Below are positions 31,040 to 63,808 of a DNA stretch of 64,000 nucleotides, in pieces. The notes beneath the pieces were generated by a model. The model did not search any database. It saw nothing but the letters and a program-made list of their open reading frames with translations, and was not told the DNA's origin. Position 1 is the stretch's first letter. The number at the start of each line of letters is the position of its first letter. The DNA is from a virus. Its lineage: Duplodnaviria; Heunggongvirae; Uroviricota; Caudoviricetes. The stretch lies in IMG/VR virus record IMGVR_UViG_3300028534_000001, positions 68,338 to 132,337 of that record; one strand, written 5' to 3'. Both the position numbers and the translations under genes were made by a program.

Positions 31040-32749
31040 TTAAAATAAATCAATTTTATATTTATAATTTCCACAATCATAAATAATTCTAAATTCATTT
31101 AAAAACATATTATCTAATTCAGATAAACTTTCTTCATATTTATTTAAAATATTTTTATTAAAATATTCTTTTATTTTATGTTTTTGATATTTAATCCTAT
31201 TATATAAAATAGAATTTTTAACATAAAAATAATTTGGACTTGTAATAGATTCTAATTTAAAAATTTTATTATAAACATTTTCTTTGTAAGTCCATCTTCT
31301 ATTACCATATGATATTAAAGATTTAATATTATAATTCTTTTTAAAATAAGATATGAATTTATTAAAAAGTCCTCTTACTATTACATATTTTTTAGTACTA
31401 AATCTTAATAATTCATATTCATTTTCTTTGAATCTATTTTTTCCAAAAGTCATAACTCCATATAAAATATTATCTATATAAAATCCTAATTTAATTTTAG
31501 AATTAACATTTCCTTGTAGGTGATTTTCATCTAAAAATTCTTTAGATGTTTTAGAATCTATTTCTTTTATAATTCCATCTCTAGCATTCAATTTTAAAAT
31601 TTTATTTGATTTTAATTTAATTAAAATTTTAGATTTCCATATATCTTTTTTATTTAAATTTAAAAATTCATTTTCAAAGATATGAAAAAGATGAATATTT
31701 TTTTCTTCACATTTAATAGTTTTTTCTAAATGATAATTTTTGTCTATTTCTTCTTTTTTATTAAAAGAATGATAATAAATCCCATCAAATTCTATAGCAA
31801 AGTTTAAGTCAGGGATATAAATATCTAATTCCTTTCCTTCTAAAATACTTCTATCATTTTCTATTATAATACCATTATAATTTTTTTTTATAAAATTTAC
31901 TAATTCTTTTTCTTGTTTCGAAGTATTTGAATAAAAATAATATGGAATATCAATATTATATTTATTATAAAAATAAATAAAATTATTATAAGATATCCCA
32001 TAATCATTTATAAGTAATGAAGCATCAATAGCATCTTTTTCTTCATTATAATAATTAAAAATAGAATTATAAATATGATTATATTTTAATTTATATTTAT
32101 TATCTTTTAAATTTTTATAATATTGACTTTGAGTTATATGTTCTACATTATATTTTTTTAAATTTGTCTCTTTTATTTTTTCTTTTATTTTTGGAGATTT
32201 AATAGGATTGTCATAACCATATTTTTTTAAATTTGTCTCTTTTATTTTTTCTTTTATTTCTCGAGCTTTTAATACTTCATCAACTCCATATTTTTTTAAA
32301 TTCGTTTCTTTAGCTTTATTCCTATTGTTAAAATTTTTATCTCCGTATTTTTCTAATTTAGTTTGTTTAGACTTTTCAATTATTTTTTTATAATTTGTAT
32401 TTTTAATTTTTAAGTTTTTTAAATCTTCATTTTTATTAGCACATTCATAAGAACAAAATTTTTCTTCCTTAAAAGGATTATACAAAGTTTCTTTTTCTAA
32501 ATGTGCCTCTAATAAATCTTTTCCACAAGTTTTACATTTTTTAGGTTTATTTCCCTTTTCTATATATAAAAAATTTAAAATTTTAGATTTAGTATTATTA
32601 CATATTTTAAAATTAGAATTTAAAAATTTTTTTCCATCATATAATTTTTCTACATATTCTTTTTTTATTTCATTATTTTTTATTTTTTCAACACAATATT
32701 TTTTAATCTCTGTTTTGTTTTTAAATTTTTTATTATCAAAATATAACAT
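31040..32749 (-). mobile_element. Free-standing Hef-like homing endonuclease
   Basis: ETNLKKYG repeats with 23-aa period, CxxC motifs, ELDIYIPDLNFAIEFDGIYYHS nuclease motif and FLDENHLQG second domain; inserted directly downstream of the capsid gene. Confidence 0.75.
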
Positions 32750-32854: not shown

Positions 32855-34255
32855 TTAGATAGAAGCGTTAAGGATTTTGATTTTTGTACTTAAAGTTGGA
32901 ACAACTGATTTAATACCTGCCATACTTGCAGCTGCTTTTTGAGCTTTAAGTGGGTTGTGGTCCATTCCGTGGAATGTATCAGTTACGAATAATGGCATAT
33001 ATGGAGCATATACAATTGAACTTGTAAATCCATCTTCAGATTTAGTAGTCATAATCATTTCATCTGTTGGAATTGCAATTGTTCTAATTACTGGTCTTCC
33101 ATCAAATGTACCATAGAAATGAGTACCTAAAGCTGCTTTTAAATCTGTAGCTGGAACAAATCCTGGCATTGCTCTTAACATACCTGCAACTTCTGAACCA
33201 ACGATATAAACAATTTCTCCACCTAATCTACCACTTTGTTCTAGAATTCTATTTTCAGCTTGTGCTAATTTAGCTTGGAAACTTAAAATGTGTTCCATAT
33301 ATGATACACCTGCTGGTGCTTGTTTATCCCAAGTTAATGTACCTGGTGTATTTCTATATAATTCTCTTACAACATTTGTTGAAAGTTCTGTAGTTAACTC
33401 TGTAACTAAATCTTGTGCTAAAATTTCTTCAGCATTTAAGCTAAATCTTTTGCTCATTTCATAAGATTTGAATAATCCAATTTCTGTTCTTAATGCAAAT
33501 GTTCTTGCTGTAATTTCAGTTGAATCGAATTCAGTATTGATTGTTTGTAATTCTTGTAAATCTTCTAAGTTAGTTGCATATGTACTTCTAATTGCTACAC
33601 CATCACCAGGAGCAGTATCAAAACTTACTTTTACTTCACCAGTTGAATAATTAACTGAACCTTTACCACCAACACCGATTAGATTTCCTTTACCATCATC
33701 TAGTAATTTTGTATCAGGTTGGTCATCAACTGTAATTTCTAAAGTTCTTAATCTTATTTCTGGATATTTTACAACCCAAGCAAAATCTGTTGCTTTTCCA
33801 TCACCAGTTGCATCTTGTTCATTTTTGATCATTTCCCCAGCAAATTCTTCTAATAATCCAGTTCTTCCTGCTTTTGCATCTAATAAGATTTCATCTTTAG
33901 TACCATCACCTCTATTAGTTCTTGATACAACATTTTTAAACCATACTAAACCTTTTCTTTCTTGAATAGGTTGCACTGAAGCAATTAAAGGAATAACTGA
34001 AGTTGTATTTGCTGCTGCAATAACATCTAATGCGATTTTTGGTAAAACACCTAAATCATCTGCTGAACCATTATTTTCTTTAAACGCTTTCCAACTCTCA
34101 AATTGAGCTAATTGATGTCCTAAAGCTGCTAAATCATTTTCTGTTACTTTTCTACCTGCTTTTGCTAAGGCAGATTTACTTTCAAATGCATCAAAATATT
34201 TTTTATATTTTTTTTCATAATCTGCTAAATTTTTTAATGTTGGTTGATTAAACAT
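32855..34255 (-). CDS. gp23: Major capsid protein (T4 gp23-like)
   Basis: ASVQPI..GLVWF, ITARTFAL, LVTELTTEL, YAPYMPL motifs. Likely start is the ATG at 34255 (AAGGA SD 8 nt upstream) rather than 34264, which overlaps the SD. Confidence 0.92.
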   Translation of the reverse strand: MFNQPTLKNLADYEKKYKKYFDAFESKSALAKAGRKVTENDLAALGHQLAQFESWKAFKENNGSADDLGVLPKIALDVIAAANTTSVIPLIASVQPIQERKGLVWFKNVVSRTNRGDGTKDEILLDAKAGRTGLLEEFAGEMIKNEQDATGDGKATDFAWVVKYPEIRLRTLEITVDDQPDTKLLDDGKGNLIGVGGKGSVNYSTGEVKVSFDTAPGDGVAIRSTYATNLEDLQELQTINTEFDSTEITARTFALRTEIGLFKSYEMSKRFSLNAEEILAQDLVTELTTELSTNVVRELYRNTPGTLTWDKQAPAGVSYMEHILSFQAKLAQAENRILEQSGRLGGEIVYIVGSEVAGMLRAMPGFVPATDLKAALGTHFYGTFDGRPVIRTIAIPTDEMIMTTKSEDGFTSSIVYAPYMPLFVTDTFHGMDHNPLKAQKAAASMAGIKSVVPTLSTKIKILNASI

Positions 34256-34421
34256 TATTACCATCCTTTTTTATAATTTTATATTATTTAATTTTTTTAG
34301 TTCTTTTGAAGGTTGAACAATTACCTTTTTTGTTTTGTCTATTCATTTTGTGCTAAATAGACACTAAACATGTTAAAAATCACTATAAAATCGATTCATG
34401 GATTTTAAAAAAAGAAAAATA

Positions 34422-42253: not shown

Positions 42254-42787
42254 ATGGATAATTATAAAAAAATAATAAGTGAAGTTGTTTTACCTAATGA
42301 AGGTATTTATTCTTATGACCCAAATGATCCAGGTGGTGAAACAGTTTATGGAATTAGTAGAAAACATTTTCCAAAATGGGAAGGATGGTCTTTAGTTGAT
42401 AAATTAAAAAATCAAGGAAATTTAAAATATAATTTAAGCCATAATGAAAAAATTTTAGAATTAGTATATTCATTTTATAAAAAAGAATTCTGGGATAAAT
42501 TAAAATTAGATAATATTGATAATTATGAAAAACAAAAAGTAATTATGGATACAGCTGTAAATGCAGGAGTAAGTAGAGCAATTAAATTTACACAAAGTGC
42601 ATTAGGAGTTGTAGTTGATGGTATATTAGGACCTATATCTTTAGAAAATTTAAAAAATATTGATGAAGAATTATTTGTTAATAAATTTAAAATTAAAAGA
42701 ATAGAATTTTATACTAATTTAGTATCTAAAAATAAAAAATTAAAAATTTATTTTTATGGATGGATTAGAAGAACTATAAATTTATAA
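42254..42787 (+). CDS. Endolysin, glycoside hydrolase family 108 with peptidoglycan-binding domain
   Basis: EGIYSYDPNDPGGETVYGIS catalytic motif; DTAVNAG, VDGILGP and GWIRR. Confidence 0.92.
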   Translation: MDNYKKIISEVVLPNEGIYSYDPNDPGGETVYGISRKHFPKWEGWSLVDKLKNQGNLKYNLSHNEKILELVYSFYKKEFWDKLKLDNIDNYEKQKVIMDTAVNAGVSRAIKFTQSALGVVVDGILGPISLENLKNIDEELFVNKFKIKRIEFYTNLVSKNKKLKIYFYGWIRRTINL

Positions 42788-42799
42788 AAAAGGTTTAAA

Positions 42800-43138
42800 A
42801 TGGAAAATCAAATAGAAAAATTATCTAAAACTTATGAAGATTTTTGGGCTAAACATAATTTAACGACTAGAACAGGAATATTTTTATTTGTAATAGTATA
42901 TGTATTATCTGTTGTTGGTGTTTTATATAGTGGTATAAATCCTGCTATAGCTAAAATTATTTTAGATACAACAAGTTATGTAGCGTTATTTTCTTTATTG
43001 ACTGTTATTTTAGGAAGTAATACTATAGTTAAAATAGCTGAAATTTTAAATAATAAAAAAACTCAATCTATTATTGAAAATATAAACAATAAAACAACAG
43101 AAAAAGATGAAGATTTAAATCCTCCAAAAATATATTAA
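42800..43138 (+). CDS. Putative holin
   Basis: Two hydrophobic helices and a charged C-terminus; follows the endolysin. Confidence 0.65.
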   Translation: MENQIEKLSKTYEDFWAKHNLTTRTGIFLFVIVYVLSVVGVLYSGINPAIAKIILDTTSYVALFSLLTVILGSNTIVKIAEILNNKKTQSIIENINNKTTEKDEDLNPPKIY

Positions 43139-43148
43139 AGGAATAAAA

Positions 43149-43529
43149 ATGAAAATTATAGATTTATTCAAAGCTTTAATAGCTCTTATAAGTGGATTAT
43201 TTATAGCTAAAACAATTTATGATAAAAATGAAAAAATAGACTCTTTACAAGAAGACAAAAAAAATTTAGAAAATGAAGTAATAGAAACTAAAAATAAATT
43301 GAATAATTCTAAAATTGATGAAATAAAATCTCAAGAAGAATTAAAAGCAGTTAAAACTGAAAAAGAAATATTAAAATCTGAAGAAAAAATCAAAGAAGAA
43401 AATAATATTAAAGTTAATAAAGTTATTAAAAAAATAGATTCTAAAGATGAAGATTTAATAAAATTAGATTTAAAAAATCAAACTAAAGGTAATAAAAATG
43501 AAAAAGTTCATTATACTATTACTCTTTAG
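43149..43529 (+). CDS. i-spanin (Rz-like)
   Basis: N-terminal TM helix followed by coiled coil; overlaps the next lipoprotein gene. Confidence 0.7.
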   Translation: MKIIDLFKALIALISGLFIAKTIYDKNEKIDSLQEDKKNLENEVIETKNKLNNSKIDEIKSQEELKAVKTEKEILKSEEKIKEENNIKVNKVIKKIDSKDEDLIKLDLKNQTKGNKNEKVHYTITL

Positions 43530-43827
43530 TTTTTTTATTTTTGGATGTGCAGAAAAACAACCTACAAAAATTTTAATAAAAAATAATTATATATATTCAA
43601 AAGCACCTATTTTAAAAATTTATGAAAATAATAATTCTTTAAAATTAACTGCTTATAATAAAAATGATAAAATTTGTATTGAAGAATGGAAAACTTGTAT
43701 TCCTAAAAATCAAATGATAATTTTAATTAAATATACTAATTCATTAAAAAATACAATAAAATTATATAAAAATGAAGTAAATATTTATAATAAATGGGCT
43801 ATAGAAAATAATAAAAAATCCAAATGA
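43498..43827 (+). CDS. o-spanin lipoprotein (Rz1-like)
   Basis: Signal peptide with lipobox IFG-C. Confidence 0.7.
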   Translation: MKKFIILLLFSFFIFGCAEKQPTKILIKNNYIYSKAPILKIYENNNSLKLTAYNKNDKICIEEWKTCIPKNQMIILIKYTNSLKNTIKLYKNEVNIYNKWAIENNKKSK

Positions 43828-56133: not shown

Positions 56134-57855
56134 TTATTCTAAATCTAATTCAACATTAAATTTTTTTATAAAATTATTTATCTCTTTTAATAATTCTTCT
56201 TTAGAATTATATTTTTCTTTAATCAATTTAGAATCAATAGATATATTATCGTGAACTCTATATAATTGATTTAAAAAAAATTTATTTTCAATTTTATTTA
56301 TAATATATTTTTCTATATAAAAATAAAAAATCATTAAACTATTTTCTTCATTTATTTCATTCAAATTTAATTTTGATTCTATTAAATTTAATTCTTTTAA
56401 TTTATTATAAATAAATTCTTTTTTATAATTTAATTCTTTTCTTAATTCTAATCCTTCTTTTTGAATTTTTTCTAATAATCTTTTTAAATTATTTTTAGAT
56501 TTAGATTCTTTTATTTTTTTAAATCTAACTTTATAATTTTCTTTAGCATTTAAAGCTGTTATAAAAGTTTCTTTAAGGGATTTTTTTATAGAATTTGTAT
56601 GTAATTTTCTACTTTTATTTTCATTTATAATTACTTTAAATAATTCATCTCTATTTTTAGCATAAAATTCTATATTAGTAATTTCAGTTTTTAAATTAAA
56701 AATTTCTTTCATAGTTTTAATAGTATTAGGAATACTATTTTTAATATCAAAAGAATAAAATTCAAATTTCTCATTAAACCATTTTCTAAAATCTTTACTT
56801 ACATTAGTAAATATACTATAATATCTTCCTTTTTTTTCTTTAATATTAAATACAATATTATGTTCATTTGAATGTATTAAAAATAATTTAACATTATCTA
56901 TAAATTTTATTATTTTTTTATTTTTAGATTTTATTGATTTTATTTTATGTTCAATAATGTTTATAGATTTGTTATATTGAATAATTTTATTATAATCTAA
57001 ACATTCATCATTTTTTCTTTTTATATTTTTAAGTTGATTTTTAAGCTTTCTAATATAATTTTCATTTACTCTAATATTTTTATATAACTTTAATAATTTA
57101 TTGTAAAGTTCTTCTTTAATATTTTCGATATGTAAAATTTTTTCAATTACAAATTCGTCTTTAATTTCTTCTTGATTTTTATCTGATTTAGGATGAATAA
57201 AATTTATTTCGTCTCTTTGTTCTTCTGTTAGATGTAAAATATTATTTTTGTTTTCATTAAAAAGTTTTTTGTATTTTAATAAAGATTTTTTAAATTCTAT
57301 ATTATTTACAATATTATATATTAGTTCATCAAATTTTTTTCTAGTTTTGTGATCAACATAAACAATATCAAAAAAAGGAATATCTTTAACGAACCATTCT
57401 TTAGCAATTCCTTTATAATTATTTTTGATTATAGTTTCTGAAAATAAATCATCAGTATCTTTTTCAATTATATCTACACCAACTTTAAAATTATTTTTTA
57501 CATCAAAATATATTTCTAAAGAATCTTTTACCTTTTGAAAGTTATTATGACCAAATAATTTATATAAAATATTTTTAGAAACAACTATAGCTTCTTTATT
57601 ATTCTTATGTTGCATCATATTACCACTATTTTTATATAATTTAATTGATGTATATAATCTATTCAAAAAATGGAAAGTTTTTCTCTTATTTATACAATAA
57701 TTTTTAATATCGTTTTTTATATATAAAATATGATTATATTCAGGTATTAGATAAACAGACTTAATTTGTTTACCTTTTTTCTTTTTGTCTGCATTTAATA
57801 AATTATTTGTTTTGTGTTGTAAAGATATTTTTTCTTTTGATGATAATTTTCTCAT
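56134..57855 (-). CDS. Protein with family-A polymerase-like palm motifs (replication/primase-like?)
   Basis: GRYYSIFTN, FDIKNSIP, K.TF..ALN and RVHD in PolA A/B/C order; no exonuclease domain recognised. Confidence 0.45.
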   Translation of the reverse strand: MRKLSSKEKISLQHKTNNLLNADKKKKGKQIKSVYLIPEYNHILYIKNDIKNYCINKRKTFHFLNRLYTSIKLYKNSGNMMQHKNNKEAIVVSKNILYKLFGHNNFQKVKDSLEIYFDVKNNFKVGVDIIEKDTDDLFSETIIKNNYKGIAKEWFVKDIPFFDIVYVDHKTRKKFDELIYNIVNNIEFKKSLLKYKKLFNENKNNILHLTEEQRDEINFIHPKSDKNQEEIKDEFVIEKILHIENIKEELYNKLLKLYKNIRVNENYIRKLKNQLKNIKRKNDECLDYNKIIQYNKSINIIEHKIKSIKSKNKKIIKFIDNVKLFLIHSNEHNIVFNIKEKKGRYYSIFTNVSKDFRKWFNEKFEFYSFDIKNSIPNTIKTMKEIFNLKTEITNIEFYAKNRDELFKVIINENKSRKLHTNSIKKSLKETFITALNAKENYKVRFKKIKESKSKNNLKRLLEKIQKEGLELRKELNYKKEFIYNKLKELNLIESKLNLNEINEENSLMIFYFYIEKYIINKIENKFFLNQLYRVHDNISIDSKLIKEKYNSKEELLKEINNFIKKFNVELDLE

Positions 57856-58226: not shown

Positions 58227-58685
58227 TTAATCCCATAATCTAGGTAATAATCTTCCAAATTCTTTAAACCATTGAATTTTCATATTTTCAATTTCTTTAA
58301 GATTAACTGGATGTTCATCTTCATACCATTGAATTTTTTGCCATTTTTTTAAAAGAACTTGTATTCTTTTTTTAGTAAAACAATCACCTTCATAATGTGT
58401 ATCTACACCCCAATGTTTTTCTAAGTCTTTTAATTTGTAGATTATTAAATCTTCAAAATAGAAAAAATCCCACCATTCGTCTTGTTTTAAAATTTTATGG
58501 TATTTTAATAAATTTCTAAAATATTTTTTTATATTATAATATTTACTTTTAAAAAATTCAATAATTTCATAAGGTAATTCAAATTTTTCATTATAATATA
58601 ATTCTTTTATATAATAATTAAATTTATCACATTTATTTTTTAATAATATTTTCAAATAATTAAAATCTATTCCATATATTTGCAT
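58227..58685 (-). CDS. Hypothetical protein
   Basis: ORF in an early-type operon. Confidence 0.55.
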   Translation of the reverse strand: MQIYGIDFNYLKILLKNKCDKFNYYIKELYYNEKFELPYEIIEFFKSKYYNIKKYFRNLLKYHKILKQDEWWDFFYFEDLIIYKLKDLEKHWGVDTHYEGDCFTKKRIQVLLKKWQKIQWYEDEHPVNLKEIENMKIQWFKEFGRLLPRLWD

Positions 58686-58695
58686 TAAAATACCT

Positions 58696-59004
58696 TTATT
58701 TCTTTTCTAAATATTTAATCATAATTTTGTTTATTTGTTTTGTATGTGTAATTCCATATAATGCAACAAATTCTTTTTCAGATGGCATAAAAATCATAAT
58801 ATTTATTATAAAAATAAAACCACTAATATATAATTTTTTCTTTTCTTTTAATTTTTTTCTAATAATTTCATTATCATAATTTTTGATTAAAGTTAGATAA
58901 ATAGTTGGATAAAATATCATCCAAAATATCCATATAATTAAAATAGTCCCTATAATATTACTTATAATTGAATAAATTAAATAAGCACTTAAAAAATCAA
59001 TCAT
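58696..59004 (-). CDS. Hypothetical membrane protein
   Basis: Two hydrophobic segments. Confidence 0.55.
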   Translation of the reverse strand: MIDFLSAYLIYSIISNIIGTILIIWIFWMIFYPTIYLTLIKNYDNEIIRKKLKEKKKLYISGFIFIINIMIFMPSEKEFVALYGITHTKQINKIMIKYLEKK

Positions 59005-59281
59005 TTATTTCTCCTTTTTCTATATAACAATTTTCTGCATATCCATTTTTAAATATAAATCCACCATTATCTGTAAATCCTATTATAAGTTTTTTATCTA
59101 TAATAGTTTCACCTTTTCCTTTAATATTGCAAATAATTACAATATTATCATTATTTTTAATTTCATTTATTTCAGATTTATTAACTAAATGTAATAAATA
59201 AAATGGTGTTAATAATAGTAATAATATTGCTATAAATTTATATCCAGGTTTTGTTTTTAATCTATAAATGATTTTTTCCAT
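58997..59281 (-). CDS. Hypothetical single-pass membrane protein
   Basis: N-terminal TM helix; Cys pair in the C-terminal domain. Confidence 0.55.
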   Translation of the reverse strand: MEKIIYRLKTKPGYKFIAILLLLLTPFYLLHLVNKSEINEIKNNDNIVIICNIKGKGETIIDKKLIIGFTDNGGFIFKNGYAENCYIEKGEIND

Positions 59282-59312
59282 GATTGTTTCCTTTTTATGT
59301 TTAATTTATATA

Positions 59313-59341
59313 ATTATACCAAATTTATTAAAAAAAGTCAA
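59313..59341 (-). promoter_or_regulatory. sigma70-type promoter
   Basis: TTGACT-17nt-TATAAT. Confidence 0.8.
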
Positions 59342-59436
59342 CTAATTTATTAAAAAATATATTAAAAATATATTAAAATACTATATAAATTTTATAACAT
59401 TAAATAATTATATAGATATATTATAAGGGATTTCAA

Positions 59437-59949
59437 ATGAATAATAGAATAAAACAAATGCTTGAAGAACTTGAAATTTTAGAAAAGGATTTAGTAAATG
59501 ATTTAAATAACATTGATCCTGATAATAAAGAACTTCACGAAAATATTATTAAATTAAGTGCTAAATATCCAGAACAAAGTGATATTTTAAAATTTATACT
59601 TTTTATAAATGATATTCAAAATACTGCTAGAGCAAATTTAGAAAATGTATATATAGATAATTTTAGCGAATTAGTAAAAAAGAAAAAACAAATTTTAAAA
59701 CTTTTAAATGATATTATTACAGAAATAAAAAAAGAATCAAAAGATGAAAATATTAAAGGAAATATTTATAATTGGAAAAGTATTTTATTTAATTTTGTTT
59801 CTAAATTAAATCCTTCACATTTTATATGGATGGGAATGACTATTATGGGAATTTTATTTATGGTATTTATTTTACAACACCCTGAAAAATCAGAAAAAGC
59901 TTTTGAAGCTGTAAAAACAACTCCTAAAATTATTCAAAAAAAATTTTAA
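59437..59949 (+). CDS. Helical protein with C-terminal TM segment, first gene of the signalling operon
   Basis: AAGGGA SD; coiled-coil N-terminus; FIWMGMTIMGILFMVFIL TM. Confidence 0.65.
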   Translation: MNNRIKQMLEELEILEKDLVNDLNNIDPDNKELHENIIKLSAKYPEQSDILKFILFINDIQNTARANLENVYIDNFSELVKKKKQILKLLNDIITEIKKESKDENIKGNIYNWKSILFNFVSKLNPSHFIWMGMTIMGILFMVFILQHPEKSEKAFEAVKTTPKIIQKKF

Positions 59950-59959
59950 AAGGCATTAA

Positions 59960-60670
59960 ATGAATAATATTTTAGAAAAATTAAAAAAATTTTTTAAAAA
60001 AAATGATAAAAAAATTTCTAATAAAGAAAATATATGGGAAAAAATTGAAGAAAATATAAGTGAATTTGAATTAGATAGTAAACTATTAAATGATTATAAT
60101 TTTGATAATTTGTGTAAACAATGTAAATTGAATAATAATTGTAAAGCAGGTAATAAACCTTGTGAATTATTTTTTAAAAATAATGGAGAATATAATTTTA
60201 TAGTCATAGATGATAATTATGGAGTAATAGAATCTATAAAAGATATTATAGAAGATTTAAAACAAAAAAATATAATATCTAAAAATTGGCAAATACATTA
60301 TTATTATACTAAACAAGCTCCTATATATTTATTAAAAGATATTAAAAGAAGAAATTTAATTCCTGATGCAGGTTTAATAGATATTACATATGGTTCTATT
60401 TTAAGAATAAAAGAAAAAAATATCAAAATAAATGGAGTTCATATTTTAGATTTTATTTTAAAAGTAAATCCTAATTTTAATTTTTATTTTTATACAGGTA
60501 ATACATTAAATCCTTATATAAAAACAGTTAAAATGATGATGGATTTTTTTAAAAAAATTTATAAAAAAGATATGGATGATTATATAATTTCTAAAAATTT
60601 TCAAGATGAAAAGGATATATATAAGATTATTAAAAAAATAATGTTAAAAACTGAAGGTAGGAAGGTATGA
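59960..60670 (+). CDS. Response regulator receiver protein with Cys-rich N-terminal extension and no output domain
   Basis: VIDDN acidic pocket, GLIDI phospho-acceptor Asp, NG, YTG switch Thr and conserved Lys (IISK). Confidence 0.75.
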   Translation: MNNILEKLKKFFKKNDKKISNKENIWEKIEENISEFELDSKLLNDYNFDNLCKQCKLNNNCKAGNKPCELFFKNNGEYNFIVIDDNYGVIESIKDIIEDLKQKNIISKNWQIHYYYTKQAPIYLLKDIKRRNLIPDAGLIDITYGSILRIKEKNIKINGVHILDFILKVNPNFNFYFYTGNTLNPYIKTVKMMMDFFKKIYKKDMDDYIISKNFQDEKDIYKIIKKIMLKTEGRKV

Positions 60671-61770
60671 AGACAAAGATGAAACATATACAAACTAAAA
60701 CTTTAAAACAAATAATATATACTAATATTGTATTTTCTTTTATTGTTGCATTTGTAATGTTTATATCATTTAATGTTTATGAAGTTTTTTATAATGAGCA
60801 TAATAATATACAAATGATAGAGAAAAAATGGATGGAATATGATTTAAAAATAGGTTGTTATGTTTTTGATTTACATAATGGTTATGTAGGTATTTTTGAT
60901 AAAAAACATAATATAATTCATTATAAACCATTAAAAATAACTAATTTTTATATTACTTATTTATTTATAACTTTTTTAATAAATATATCTTGGATGATAA
61001 AAATTTATGAAATAGTAGCTAAATCAGAAGAAGAAAAATATTTATTAAAAGTAACAAATTTAGAAAGTATGGCTACACAAAATAGTATGAGTGTATTAAC
61101 TGAAAATATTCATCACGAGTTAAATTCACCATTAAATGTTATTAAATTAAAATTTAAAAAAATAACTGAAGAATTAAGTAATAATAAAAAAATGAAAAAT
61201 AATATTGATTTAATCAATATGAGTTTAGATCAAATATCGACAATACTTGTAAATATGTCTGATTTTAAATCTTTAAAATATTCTAATGGTAATAAAACAT
61301 TATATGAAATAATTGAAGGTGCTTTTAGAATGATTAAAGTTGTTTCAGATAATGAATTTGAATATTTTATTGATGAAGATTTTAAAAAATATCATATAGA
61401 CCATTCATATGGTTTAAAAAATGCAGATGTAATAAGTATATTTATAAATTTTATAAAAAATAGTTTAGAAGCTAATGCCACTAATATATGTATAAATATA
61501 GAAAATAAAAAAGGTAATTATTTACTTATTAACATAAAAGATAATGGAAATGGTATTCCTAATGATATGATAAATAAAATTTTTGAACCTAATAAATCAT
61601 CAAAAGATAATGATACAATAGGATTAAGAGGTAATGGTTTATTTTTAGTTCAAAATTTATTAAAAATGTTTGGAGGAGATGCTAAATTAAAAAAATCAAA
61701 AAGAGGTAATGGTACAGAATTTGTAATTAAAATTCCTATTATAGAAAATTCTAGTTACTCAAAGCAATAA
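60667..61770 (+). CDS. Membrane sensor histidine kinase
   Basis: Two TM helices; H box IHHELNSPL, N box FINFIKNSLEA, G1 DNGNGI, F box KIFEP, G2 GLRGNGLF; ATGA overlap with the regulator. Confidence 0.92.
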   Translation: MKTKMKHIQTKTLKQIIYTNIVFSFIVAFVMFISFNVYEVFYNEHNNIQMIEKKWMEYDLKIGCYVFDLHNGYVGIFDKKHNIIHYKPLKITNFYITYLFITFLINISWMIKIYEIVAKSEEEKYLLKVTNLESMATQNSMSVLTENIHHELNSPLNVIKLKFKKITEELSNNKKMKNNIDLINMSLDQISTILVNMSDFKSLKYSNGNKTLYEIIEGAFRMIKVVSDNEFEYFIDEDFKKYHIDHSYGLKNADVISIFINFIKNSLEANATNICINIENKKGNYLLINIKDNGNGIPNDMINKIFEPNKSSKDNDTIGLRGNGLFLVQNLLKMFGGDAKLKKSKRGNGTEFVIKIPIIENSSYSKQ

Positions 61771-62575: not shown

Positions 62576-63526
62576 TTATAATGTATAGTAACCATTAACA
62601 TTACTAAATTCTCTTCTTGGTTTTCCATCAATAATAGTAGAATTATCTAAAATCATATTATCTTTAAGTTTTACACCTTCAAAAAAGTTACTACCACCAC
62701 CAGATAAAATAACTAAATCAGATAATGAAAATACTTTTTTACTTTCTACTAAAACACTTCCAAAAATTTTAATTATAAATTTTCTTTTAGCATCTTTAAT
62801 ATAATCTTCAATATCTTTTTGCTTTTTACCATTATATCTAAAATACCCTTTATATAAAATTTCATTAGCTTCTTGTTCACTAAAAGGGTCTTTAAATTTA
62901 TTTTCTAAATAATCCCTAAATGGTTTAATTAAACTTGATACTCCGTGTCCTGGATATGATTTAGAATTATTTGGAATAAATTTTCCATTTTTCATATTTA
63001 AAACATTGATAGTATTATAACCTATATCAATAATAGCAACATTTAAATCTTTAATATTTTCATTTTCTAAATCTTCTGGCATTTGTCCATTTTTAGCAAA
63101 ATTTAAATAAATACCTACTCCTTGAGGAACAACTTTAACATTAAGATTTATTTCTTCATCATTTACAATAAAATTAGAAATTCTTTCTTGAAATTCATCT
63201 TTTTTGTCCCAATCAACTAATGCTAATCCTGTTCTTACTTCGATAGGAACTTCTTTTTTAACTTCTTCAAATTTGTTTAAAACGTGATAAATAATCAATG
63301 GTGCATATTTATAAAGAAAATCATAATTTGTTGTTGAAAAAGCTTCTGTTTTACCTTCACTCCCTACAACGTATTTTTCCCCTTCAAAGTTATAAACTTT
63401 CTGTTCTCCATATCTAATACCATTATCTGTAAAAAATGATATAGCAGTAGGAAATTTTACATTTTTTCCTTTATAATTTATTTTAACATCTCCATAACCA
63501 ATATCAATAGCAATTTTTTCTGACAT
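62576..63526 (-). CDS. parM: ParM/StbA-family actin-like ATPase
   Basis: IAIDIGYGDVK (phosphate 1), VVPQG (connect 1), IIDIGYNT (phosphate 2), LSGGG (adenosine), NVNGYY (connect 2). Confidence 0.88.
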   Translation of the reverse strand: MSEKIAIDIGYGDVKINYKGKNVKFPTAISFFTDNGIRYGEQKVYNFEGEKYVVGSEGKTEAFSTTNYDFLYKYAPLIIYHVLNKFEEVKKEVPIEVRTGLALVDWDKKDEFQERISNFIVNDEEINLNVKVVPQGVGIYLNFAKNGQMPEDLENENIKDLNVAIIDIGYNTINVLNMKNGKFIPNNSKSYPGHGVSSLIKPFRDYLENKFKDPFSEQEANEILYKGYFRYNGKKQKDIEDYIKDAKRKFIIKIFGSVLVESKKVFSLSDLVILSGGGSNFFEGVKLKDNMILDNSTIIDGKPRREFSNVNGYYTL

Positions 63527-63583: not shown

Positions 63584-63808
63584 TTAATATAAAATTTTTT
63601 CTAATAAAGGTTTTAATTTTTTCATTGCTGATTTTTCAATTTTTCTGATACCTGCAGGTGTCATATTTAACATGTCTGCTATTTCTTTAGTTGAATATTC
63701 TCTGCTTTCTAATAATCCATCGTTAATTAAACAATGTAATATTTCCCATCTTTTACTAGGATTATAATTTTGTGTTAAACTTTTTACTTCGCTTATTGTC
63801 ATATACAT
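63584..63808 (-). CDS. Stand-alone sigma70 region-4-like HTH protein
   Basis: YSTKEIADMLNMTPAGIRKIEKSAMKKLK matches the region 4.2 pattern; only 74 aa. Confidence 0.75.
   Translation of the reverse strand: MYMTISEVKSLTQNYNPSKRWEILHCLINDGLLESREYSTKEIADMLNMTPAGIRKIEKSAMKKLKPLLEKILY

What the first reader, a model, noticed from the sequence alone, without database searches (positions are those of the whole stretch)
59437..61770. Phage-encoded complete two-component signalling operon
A compact plus-strand operon in an otherwise lytic T4-like genome encodes an intact membrane histidine kinase (H, N, G1, F and G2 boxes) and a receiver protein retaining all canonical residues (DD, D, T, K), coupled by an ATGA overlap. 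A membrane accessory gene precedes them. The AT-rich composition looks like the rest of the window and the promoter region has a late-like TAAATA, so it does not look like host contamination. The regulator has no DNA-binding domain, so the output must be protein-protein. Possible outputs are hijacking host chemotaxis/flagellar or other phosphorelays, acting as a phosphate sink, or controlling phage lysis or persistence. To my knowledge this is rare and not functionally described in such phages.
Basis: partly seen in the sequence, partly recalled or inferred. Interest (0 to 1): 0.85.

Follow-up and report, generated by a model that had tools for sequence, protein, structure and literature searches.

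The report
Phage-own membrane kinase-receiver signalling module
A complete 223-kb T4-type phage from hydrothermal-vent samples carries its own sensor kinase, a very divergent phospho-receiver protein and a small membrane-anchored partner; the trio recurs on many unrelated large phage contigs and was not found in the bacterial genomes searched, so it looks like a virus-specific signalling pathway whose target is still unknown.

Summary
Three plus-strand genes at 59437-61770 encode a tail-anchored membrane protein (A), a 236-aa receiver protein (B) and a two-TM HisKA-type histidine kinase (C). B and C overlap by ATGA.

The kinase is clear: HATPase_c scores 63 bits and the H, N, G1, F and G2 residues are conserved across 40 relatives. 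B is not recognised by Pfam Response_reg. However, its family keeps D84, D85, D141, T179 and K212 in at least 90% of 110 members. Its model (pLDDT 89) is a (beta-alpha)5 fold, and every listed PDB match is a receiver domain.

Both families look phage-restricted:
- The genome is complete (direct terminal repeats), with a Gp23-type capsid and no integrase.
- The trio is syntenic in independent assemblies and occurs in phages with unrelated capsids.
- Cellular genomes gave only generic kinases at 30% identity or less, and no receiver relative.

The output is unknown. B has no DNA-binding domain. It has a conserved N-terminal amphipathic helix and, in this lineage, a four-Cys knot. A-B linkage is tighter than B-kinase linkage, and three loci sit beside lysis genes. 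I therefore favour control of a membrane event, with lysis timing the leading but weak candidate.

This scan has flagged similar phage kinase/receiver/membrane-protein cassettes on other DNA. I found no paper describing them.

The parts
59282..59436 (.). Divergent intergenic region upstream of the operon. It has an SD-like AAGGGA before the ATG. No promoter can be assigned.
   Evidence: promoter-like hits are no more frequent than in shuffles, and there is no exact T4 late box on the + strand.
59437..59949 (+). Gene A: 170-aa tail-anchored membrane protein. It has an all-helical N-terminal domain (about 1-105), one TM helix (residues 127-148, nt 59815-59880) and a short C-terminal tail. No known family.
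   Evidence: no Pfam or PHROG family; TM; 14-member alignment; F53 and D59 invariant; K43, N58, K83 and P149 at least 90%; model pLDDT 67, all helices. It lies directly upstream of the receiver gene in 17 of 20 loci by HMM.
59960..60184 (+). Gene B, N-terminal extension (residues 1-75). It holds an amphipathic helix at residues 3-13 and Cys52, Cys55, Cys61 and Cys68 (C-x2-C-x5-C-x6-C).
   Evidence: The amphipathic start is conserved across the family (hydrophobic moment 0.56 against 0.42 for shuffles). Four or more Cys occur in 40 of 138 members.
60191..60670 (+). Gene B, receiver (REC) domain (residues 78-236). Acidic pair D84/D85; predicted phospho-acceptor D141 (nt 60380-60382); T179; K212. 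A beta-hairpin insert at residues 147-156 follows beta3.
   Evidence: near-invariant quintet in 110 sequences; AF2 pLDDT 89.3, pTM 0.82, (beta-alpha)5; the 50 listed PDB matches, best first, are all receiver domains; target TM up to 0.76; Atlas: best match a virus-only cluster, the rest Response_reg; 23 of 110 relatives hit PF00072 weakly.
60667..61770 (+). Gene C: membrane histidine kinase. TM1 residues 13-42; extracytoplasmic loop of about 55 aa; TM2 residues 99-117; DHp with H150 (nt 61114-61116); catalytic domain residues 255-358 (nt 61429-61740). No HAMP or PAS domain between TM2 and DHp.
60667..60670 (+). ATGA overlap: the stop of B lies inside the start of C (translational coupling).
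   Evidence: The same 4-nt overlap appears in relatives L001, L004, L007 and L009.

Best explanation
This is a working two-component pathway that belongs to the phage, not a recently captured host operon.

Proposed mechanism:
1. The two-TM kinase C senses something at the inner membrane or in the periplasm through its roughly 55-residue loop. It has no cytoplasmic sensor domain. (Inferred.)
2. C autophosphorylates on H150 and passes the phosphate to D141 of the receiver protein B. (Inferred from conserved catalytic residues and obligate operon linkage.)
3. B has no DNA-binding output. Its conserved N-terminal amphipathic helix probably holds it at the membrane next to the kinase and protein A. 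In this lineage a four-Cys knot (metal site?) adds a second possible input. (Inferred.)
4. Phosphorylated B then acts by protein contact on a membrane target. Because A-B linkage is even tighter than B-C linkage, the tail-anchored protein A is the most likely direct partner.

Likely role: control of a membrane event late in infection. My split, given a functional pathway:
- lysis timing or lysis inhibition through a holin or antiholin-like action of A: about 35%
- superinfection or envelope-state sensing with another output: about 25%
- flagellar switch interference in this particular phage: about 10%
- other: about 30%

Shown: gene anatomy, kinase and receiver identity, conservation, phage restriction. 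Not shown: any phosphotransfer, any binding, the signal, the target.
For: Kinase identity and intact catalytic residues.

Receiver identity: fold. The five phospho-chemistry residues are the only near-invariant columns across 110 relatives. There is a transitive weak link to PF00072.

One kinase, one receiver and no Hpt in the complete genome.

Linkage across 20 non-redundant loci:
- A lies upstream of B in 17 by HMM, plus L110 by topology.
- The kinase lies directly, or one gene, downstream in 16, plus a degenerate kinase-like gene in L011. One locus ends at the contig edge and two lack the kinase.

Phage ownership:
- Complete genome with direct terminal repeats and T4-type capsid and protease.
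- Syntenic copies in separate ENA, JGI and Logan assemblies.
- Carriers of 96, 161 and 194 kb rated 100% complete do not share the capsid protein.
- In 185,579 species genomes the kinase scan found only matches of 30% identity or less, apart from two MAG contigs of 1.4-2 kb. The receiver scan found nothing.
- The receiver profile found nothing in 401 genomes of the phylum of a Sulfurimonadaceae MAG, while scoring 8e-51 on its own genome.
- The nearest Atlas structural cluster is 100% viral.

Membrane setting: TM segments in A and C and the amphipathic N-terminus of B.

Envelope and lysis hints:
- Holin plus GH108 endolysin lie directly upstream of the module in L009/L012 and L019.
- A VanY-type endolysin lies directly upstream of A-B in L110.
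- In 6 loci a signal-peptide protein follows the kinase, and in five of the six an outer-membrane-barrel-like protein too (L016 shows only the small one). In 2 loci a periplasmic Cys-rich membrane protein is inserted.
Against: No biochemical or expression data exist, and no RNA run was listed.

Pfam Response_reg does not recognise B, and HisKA is just under its cut-off.

The lysis link is weak. Only 3 of 20 loci sit beside lysis genes. In this genome the GH108 lysis cassette (42254-43827) is 15.6 kb away. Other neighbours are replication or nucleotide genes.

Two loci (L108, L110) have A-B without an adjacent kinase. The receiver may therefore sometimes be fed by another kinase, possibly the host's.

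The membrane-targeting role of the N-terminal helix and any metal binding by the Cys knot are inferences from sequence only.
Confidence: 0.62

Rival explanations
1. Motility hijack. Phosphorylated B works as a phage CheY that binds the flagellar switch, either host FliM or the phage's own FliM-like and FliN-like proteins, to stop or bias swimming of the infected cell.
For: The same genome encodes a FliM-like protein (PF02154, E 1.3e-19) and a FliN-like protein (PF01052, E 4.4e-17). The FliM-like N-terminus reads like the CheY-P docking peptide. The protein matches solved flagellar motor switch (FliM) chains at E 2.8e-26. B is a receiver without a DNA-binding output.
Against: Three other phages rated 100% complete that carry the module have no FliM relative. 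The partner kinase is a membrane HisKA type, not CheA, and no Hpt was found. B carries a 75-residue extension and a beta3 insert that CheY lacks. The structural matches are no closer to CheY than to ComE, Spo0F or RcsB. The FliM genes lie about 27 kb beyond the window end, not next to the module.
Confidence: 0.1
2. Cross-talk with host signalling. The phage kinase phosphorylates host response regulators, or B drains phosphate from host kinases (a phosphate sink), to reprogramme host transcription.
For: B has no output domain. Two relatives have A-B without an adjacent kinase, which suggests another phosphodonor is possible.
Against: Both families are far from cellular ones: 30% identity or less for the kinase and no cellular receiver relative. 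Strict pairing with ATGA coupling argues for an insulated cognate pair. The beta3-alpha3 insert lies in a loop that, from general knowledge of receiver domains, faces the kinase.
Confidence: 0.1
3. B is not phosphorylated by C. It is a pseudo-receiver, or an enzyme-type Rec domain such as the cREC described in jumbo phages, and the gene linkage reflects another relationship.
For: Pfam does not detect B. Divergent Rec domains with non-signalling roles have been proposed in jumbo phages (PMC7824862).
Against: The published cREC is defined as never linked to histidine kinases, whereas B is almost always linked. Pseudo-receivers typically lose the acidic pocket, but here D84, D85, D141, T179 and K212 are the best conserved residues of the family.
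Confidence: 0.06
4. Host-derived passenger genes or a chimeric assembly.
For: Two-component systems are typical cellular genes. Many 'phage' records with kinase hits in GenBank look like host contamination (for example the roughly 500-kb Salmonella enterica contigs and the 134-240-kb 'Acinetobacter phage MD-2021a' records annotated envZ/rstB).
Against: Complete genome with direct terminal repeats. Operon GC 0.184 against 0.214 for the window. The same flanks (RNR upstream, actin-like partition gene downstream) occur in independent assemblies from other samples. No close cellular homologues were found.
Confidence: 0.02

Closest known systems
Class I HisKA-type two-component pairs with stand-alone receivers (for example HK853-RR468, DivJ/PleC-DivK, KinA-Spo0F)
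   Same: A membrane or dimeric HisKA kinase with H, N, G1, F and G2 boxes. A single-domain receiver with the DD/D/T/K pocket. The two genes are translationally coupled. Output is by protein contact rather than DNA binding.
   Different: Both proteins form phage-restricted families: kinase matches in cellular genomes reach at most 30% identity, and the receiver is invisible to PF00072. The receiver has an N-terminal amphipathic helix, a Cys knot and a beta-hairpin insert. There is an obligate third gene for a tail-anchored membrane protein. No Hpt or second receiver exists for a relay.
Phage phiCDHM1 agr3 locus (AgrB, AgrD, AgrC) of Clostridioides difficile (PMC3901668)
   Same: A membrane histidine kinase encoded in a myovirus genome and proposed to let the phage use a signalling input.
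   Different: The agr3 genes were judged horizontally acquired from the host, they have host homologues, and no response regulator is encoded. Here the kinase comes with its own receiver and neither has close cellular relatives.
cREC divergent receiver domain of jumbo phages (Iyer et al. 2021, PMC7824862)
   Same: A divergent Rec-fold domain found in large phages, with conserved aspartates.
   Different: cREC is described as never associated with histidine kinases and as linked to NAD/ADP-ribose enzymes. B is kinase-linked and membrane-associated.
T4 lysis inhibition (holin T with antiholins RI and RIII) and LytSR-LrgAB/CidAB control of holin-like proteins
   Same: The concept only: an envelope or periplasmic signal is converted into control of a membrane lesion protein. 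Some relatives place the module directly after holin or endolysin genes.
   Different: No sequence relation was found. Phage_holin_T is absent. LytS and LytR have 5TM-Lyt and LytTR domains that are absent here. The lysis link is seen in only 3 of 20 loci.
CheY-FliM switch signalling
   Same: A receiver without an output domain. The genome encodes a FliM-like protein whose N-terminus resembles the CheY-P docking peptide.
   Different: No CheA or Hpt. B has extra N-terminal and beta3 elements. The FliM-like gene is absent from other phages rated 100% complete that carry the module.

Membership tests
HisKA-type (class I) sensor histidine kinase | DHp helix with an H-box phospho-acceptor histidine (H-E-x-x-x-P) | tested here: met
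   H150, E151 and P155 are invariant in 40 relatives. The region aligns to the H-box of LvrB, PDB 8VC9. Pfam HisKA gives E 3.5e-5 but 24.2 bits, below the 26.9 cut-off.
HisKA-type (class I) sensor histidine kinase | Bergerat-fold catalytic domain with N, G1, F and G2 boxes | tested here: met
   HATPase_c 63.4 bits against a cut-off of 26.4. N261, N265, D292, G322 and G324 are invariant; G294, G296 and F306 are at least 90% conserved.
HisKA-type (class I) sensor histidine kinase | ATP-dependent autophosphorylation on histidine | not testable with these tools
   Needs purified protein and labelled ATP.
Receiver (REC, CheY-like) domain, PF00072 | (beta-alpha)5 flavodoxin-like fold | tested here: met
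   AF2 model pLDDT 89.3 with beta1-alpha1 through beta5-alpha5 at residues 78-235. All 50 listed Foldseek PDB matches (best first) are receiver domains. Atlas matches are Response_reg clusters.
Receiver (REC, CheY-like) domain, PF00072 | Acidic pocket DD, phospho-acceptor D, T/S and K at the ends of beta1, beta3, beta4 and beta5 | tested here: met
   D84, D85, D141, T179 and K212 are at least 90% conserved in 110 relatives. Their positions fit the model's strands.
Receiver (REC, CheY-like) domain, PF00072 | Scores above the Pfam gathering threshold | tested here: not met
   No hit at E <= 0.1 for the protein or at E <= 1 anywhere in the genome. Of 110 relatives, 23 hit weakly (best E 8.4e-5). 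It is a receiver by fold and chemistry, but a separate sequence family.
Receiver (REC, CheY-like) domain, PF00072 | Phosphotransfer from a cognate kinase | not testable with these tools
   Supported only by ATGA coupling and conserved adjacency.
CheY (chemotaxis response regulator) | Partner is CheA (Hpt-containing class II kinase); the protein is a bare receiver of about 120 aa that binds the FliM N-terminus | tested here: not met
   The partner is a HisKA membrane kinase. No Hpt is present in the genome. B has 236 aa with a 75-residue extension. FliM binding was not tested.
cREC of jumbo phages (PMC7824862) | Never linked to histidine kinases; linked to NAD/ADP-ribose processing genes | tested here: not met
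   B is followed by a kinase in 16 or 17 of 20 loci. The neighbours are not NAD/ADPr enzymes.
Host-derived phage kinase moron (phiCDHM1 AgrC type) | Close homologues in host chromosomes; no phage-encoded regulator | tested here: not met
   No cellular match above 30% identity except two MAG contigs of 1.4-2 kb. The phage encodes its own receiver.
LytSR-type holin regulation | 5TM-Lyt sensor kinase and LytTR DNA-binding regulator | tested here: not met
   Pfam shows only HisKA and HATPase_c in C and nothing in B.

The most novel reading that the evidence does not exclude
Large phages of several unrelated lineages share a virus-only signalling pathway: a periplasm-facing kinase, a membrane-tethered receiver and a tail-anchored effector. 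The phage uses it to read the state of the host envelope, or the arrival of competing phages, and to decide when to open the membrane. That would be a phosphorelay-based counterpart of T4 lysis inhibition. In this vent lineage a four-Cys site on the receiver could add a metal or redox input.
Probability: 0.25. Interest if true: 0.85.

Novelty: new variant of a known kind. Interest (0 to 1): 0.62.

Why it matters
Two-component systems are treated as cellular sensors, and the published phage cases I found are partial, host-derived cassettes. Here a kinase-receiver pair has diverged into its own virus-restricted families. It keeps every catalytic residue, is joined to a phage-only membrane protein, and recurs in phages with different capsids. 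This implies that virulent-type large phages sense conditions during infection and act on them without transcription factors. If the target is lysis or superinfection control, it would give a molecular handle on how uncultivated phages time host killing. It would also supply a compact, insulated kinase-receiver pair for synthetic biology. The family-specific receiver profile (alignment A4) may also serve as a viral marker gene.

Tried and rejected
- DNA similarity to 50,697 phage records: no match.
- tblastn of the kinase against those records: only matches below 32% identity, and several look like host contamination or generic kinases.
- tblastn of B against those records: nothing.
- Profile of B against PDB sequences: only spurious tektin hits.
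- PHROGs and Pfam for A and B: nothing.
- Complex prediction of A against two copies of the kinase TM-DHp part: no verdict (score 0.00, controls not run). This is neither for nor against binding.
- AF2 model of A: low confidence (pLDDT 67, pTM 0.36), so I did no fold search on it. The Atlas look-up for A gave nothing usable.
- Sequencing runs: no RNA holder listed. The DNA is held in an 'epibiont metagenome' run (possibly the source) and, at about half of the sampled words, in a 'hydrothermal vent metagenome' run of another study and in a run of a third study with no habitat label.
- Promoter and terminator scans: uninformative in DNA of about 20% GC.
- Neighbour annotation of distant loci by PHROGs and Pfam: mostly unknown, or replication genes.
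- The search for related loci with the 110-sequence alignment failed because it had no conserved stretch. I repeated it with the 6-sequence alignment.
- Literature: five full-text searches found no paper describing a phage kinase/receiver/membrane-protein module. The library lacks most subscription journals, so this is not proof of absence.
B starts MNNILEKLKK, which does not fit that motif.
Full report
**What is there**

The window averages 21% GC and is transcribed almost entirely on the minus strand. It carries tail sheath, baseplate, capsid, prohead protease, terminase and ribonucleotide reductase genes. The capsid protein matches Pfam Gp23 (E 5.7e-21) and the protease matches Peptidase_S77. 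The window lies at 68338-132337 of a 222,650-bp virus record with direct terminal repeats, rated 100% complete. No tyrosine integrase was found. 'T4-like phage, no sign of lysogeny by integration' is therefore fair. An actin-like partition gene does sit just downstream, at 62576-63526.

At 59437-61770 three plus-strand genes form one of the few plus-strand islands:
- A: 170 aa
- B: 236 aa
- C: 367 aa

Each has an SD-like sequence, and B and C overlap by ATGA. GC is 0.184, close to the rest of the window.

**The kinase**

C hits HATPase_c at 63 bits and HisKA just under threshold. In an alignment of 40 relatives, H150, E151, P155, N261, N265, D292, G322 and G324 are invariant. G294, G296 and F306 are at least 90% conserved. 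Two hydrophobic segments (13-42, 99-117) flank a loop of about 55 residues. TM2 runs almost directly into the DHp helix with no HAMP or PAS domain. Of 109 family members checked, 93 have the same two-TM layout, with a median loop of 89 residues. The best solved relative is the Leptospira kinase LvrB, at E 1.9e-11.

**The receiver**

- Pfam finds nothing in B, and PF00072 finds nothing in the whole genome.
- A word-indexed search of 5.8 billion proteins found one relative.
- An exhaustive profile search of 1.84 billion representatives found 271 (131 at E <= 1e-10). Nearly all of the 150 listed are 160-310 aa, apart from a few shorter fragments.
- In a 110-sequence alignment the only columns conserved at 90% or more are D84, D85, D141, T179 and K212, plus invariant G159. 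This is the receiver phospho-pocket quintet.
- 23 of the 110 members hit PF00072 weakly.
- The AlphaFold model built on this alignment is confident (pLDDT 89.3, pTM 0.82). It is a (beta-alpha)5 domain from residue 78, with the five residues at the strand ends and an extra beta-hairpin (147-156) after beta3.
- All 50 listed Foldseek PDB matches (best first) are receiver domains, including ComE, Spo0F, CheY, RcsB and NtrX.
- The best ESM Atlas match is a virus-only cluster of 215-aa proteins, and the rest are Response_reg clusters.

B is therefore a receiver by fold and chemistry, but it belongs to a sequence family of its own.

Its first 75 residues are not a known DNA-binding domain. They begin with an amphipathic helix conserved across the family; typical starts read like M-x-x-F-L-K-K-L-F-K-K. 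The hydrophobic moment is 0.56 against 0.42 for shuffles. From memory this resembles MinD-type membrane-targeting helices, which is a lead and not a test. In this lineage the extension also carries C52-x2-C55-x5-C61-x6-C68. Four or more Cys occur in 40 of 138 members and none in 53.

**Protein A**

A has no family. It is all-helical with one TM helix near the C-terminus (127-148) and a short tail. Fourteen homologues align, with conserved K43, F53, N58, D59, K83 and P149.

**Conservation and ownership**

The block A-B-C, with RNR upstream and the actin-like gene downstream, recurs at 45-70% protein identity. It appears in independent ENA, JGI and Logan assemblies, including contigs of 198 kb and 106 kb.

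I examined 20 non-redundant loci:
- A precedes B in 17 by HMM, and in one more (L110) by topology only.
- The kinase follows directly, or after one inserted gene, in 16. L011 has a degenerate kinase-like gene.
- One locus ends at the contig edge.
- Two (L108, L110) have A-B but no adjacent kinase.

Carriers include records of 96, 161 and 194 kb rated 100% complete. Their capsid proteins show no similarity to this one, so the module crosses phage lineages.

Cellular genomes gave the following:
- Pattern scans of 185,579 species genomes gave no receiver relative.
- For the kinase they gave only generic kinases at 30% identity or less, plus two MAG contigs of 1.4-2 kb at 36-42% that are probably phage fragments.
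- The receiver profile found nothing at E <= 1e-5 in 401 genomes sampled from the phylum of a Sulfurimonadaceae MAG (presumably Campylobacterota). It scores 8e-51 on its own genome.
- The genome has one kinase, one receiver and no Hpt domain.

Chimeric assembly or recent host capture is therefore very unlikely.

**Clues to function**

All three proteins are at, or predicted to be at, the inner membrane, and there is no transcriptional output domain.

Variations in relatives point to the envelope:
- In six loci a small signal-peptide protein follows the kinase. In five of the six a protein of roughly 365-420 aa comes next (split in L020); it has an N-terminal signal-like segment and a C-terminal Phe and looks like an outer-membrane barrel. 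L016 shows only the small protein.
- In two loci a periplasmic Cys-rich membrane protein is inserted between B and the kinase.

Three loci touch lysis genes:
- L009/L012 and L019 have a GH108 endolysin, a 3-TM holin, and then A-B-C.
- L110 has a VanY-type endolysin, then A-B.

In this genome the GH108 endolysin cassette is another plus-strand island at 42254-43827, 15.6 kb away. Other loci have replication, nuclease or nucleotide genes as neighbours. The lysis link is thus suggestive but thin.

The flagellar idea has one local support. This genome encodes FliM-like and FliN-like proteins, and the FliM-like N-terminus resembles the CheY-P docking peptide. Three other phages rated 100% complete that carry the module lack any FliM relative, so this cannot be the general output.

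**Reading**

The best-supported account is a functional, insulated, phage-owned kinase-to-receiver pathway working at the membrane. Protein A is the most likely partner of the phosphorylated receiver, because A-B is the tightest linkage. Among outputs I rank lysis timing or lysis inhibition first (about 35% given function). Next come other envelope or superinfection sensing, flagellar interference in this phage, and cross-talk with host systems. None of these steps has been shown. A complex prediction for A with the kinase gave no verdict.

**Comparison with what is known**

The parts are classical: a HisKA kinase and a stand-alone receiver, as in DivK, Spo0F or CheY. The differences are:
- virus-restricted families
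- the receiver's membrane helix, Cys knot and beta3 insert
- the obligate tail-anchored third protein

The published phage kinase I could find, AgrC of phiCDHM1, is host-derived and has no regulator (PMC3901668). The divergent 'cREC' of jumbo phages is defined by never being kinase-linked (PMC7824862). Five literature searches found no description of this module.

Within this scan, similar phage kinase/receiver/membrane-protein cassettes have been noted several times on other DNA, often with a suggested lysis link. The amphipathic receiver N-terminus was also noted once. I used these notes as leads and re-tested what I could.

**Verdict**

This is a new variant of a known kind: a phage-specific two-component module. 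Interest is moderate to high, and the output remains the open question.

Noticed in passing
window 42254-43827 (+): A second plus-strand island. It holds a GH108 endolysin with a PG_binding_3 domain (42254-42787), followed by three small ORFs (112, 126 and 109 aa) that are probably holin or spanin candidates. GC skew flips here.
   Followed up: partly
window 62576-63526 (-) and 63584-63808 (-): An actin-like (ALP_N / MreB-like_C; PHROG 'partition protein', E 2e-40) gene and a 74-aa protein with a sigma-70 region-4-like HTH. The actin-like gene is syntenic with the kinase module in the close relatives (L001, L004, L007/L010); the small HTH-like gene in L004 and L010 only. This suggests a plasmid-like or cytoskeletal function in a phage without an integrase.
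   Followed up: partly
L022:4092-4910 (-) and L022:3874-4095 (-) = G000:C1 about 159.9-160.9 kb: FliM-like (272 aa, PF02154) and FliN-like (73 aa, PF01052) genes in the same phage. The FliM-like N-terminus resembles the CheY-P docking peptide. They are absent from three other phages rated 100% complete that carry the kinase module.
   Followed up: partly
L013:6961-8501, L018:7109-8655, L017:6825-8353, L021:7046-8143 (+): In a subset of relatives the kinase is followed by a signal-peptide protein of about 90 aa and a protein of roughly 365-420 aa that ends in Phe and looks like an outer-membrane beta-barrel. This extends the module across the envelope. Neither has a Pfam or PHROG family.
   Followed up: partly
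L008:5415-6017 and L014:5961-6557 (+): A roughly 200-aa protein with an N-terminal signal or anchor, a Cys-rich middle part and a C-terminal TM helix is inserted between the receiver and kinase genes in two relatives.
   Followed up: no
window 58227-59281 (-): Three small genes run divergent from the operon: 94 aa with an N-terminal signal-anchor, 102 aa with several hydrophobic segments, and 152 aa. They are conserved only in the closest relatives and have no family. Their membrane character next to the module may be relevant.
   Followed up: no
window 31040-32749 (-): A 569-aa HNH/homing-endonuclease-like gene (PHROG 3339, E 4.5e-107) sits just downstream of the major capsid gene (32855-34264), inside the structural block.
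   Followed up: no
window 56134-57855 (-): A 573-aa, extremely Lys/Asn/Ile-rich ORF with no family. It is conserved (569 aa) in the closest relative, L001. This is the lowest-GC stretch of the window (0.15).
   Followed up: no
G000:C1:40640-40939 (-): The second HATPase_c hit in the genome (30.8 bits, 251-aa frame), probably a type II topoisomerase subunit rather than a kinase.
   Followed up: no
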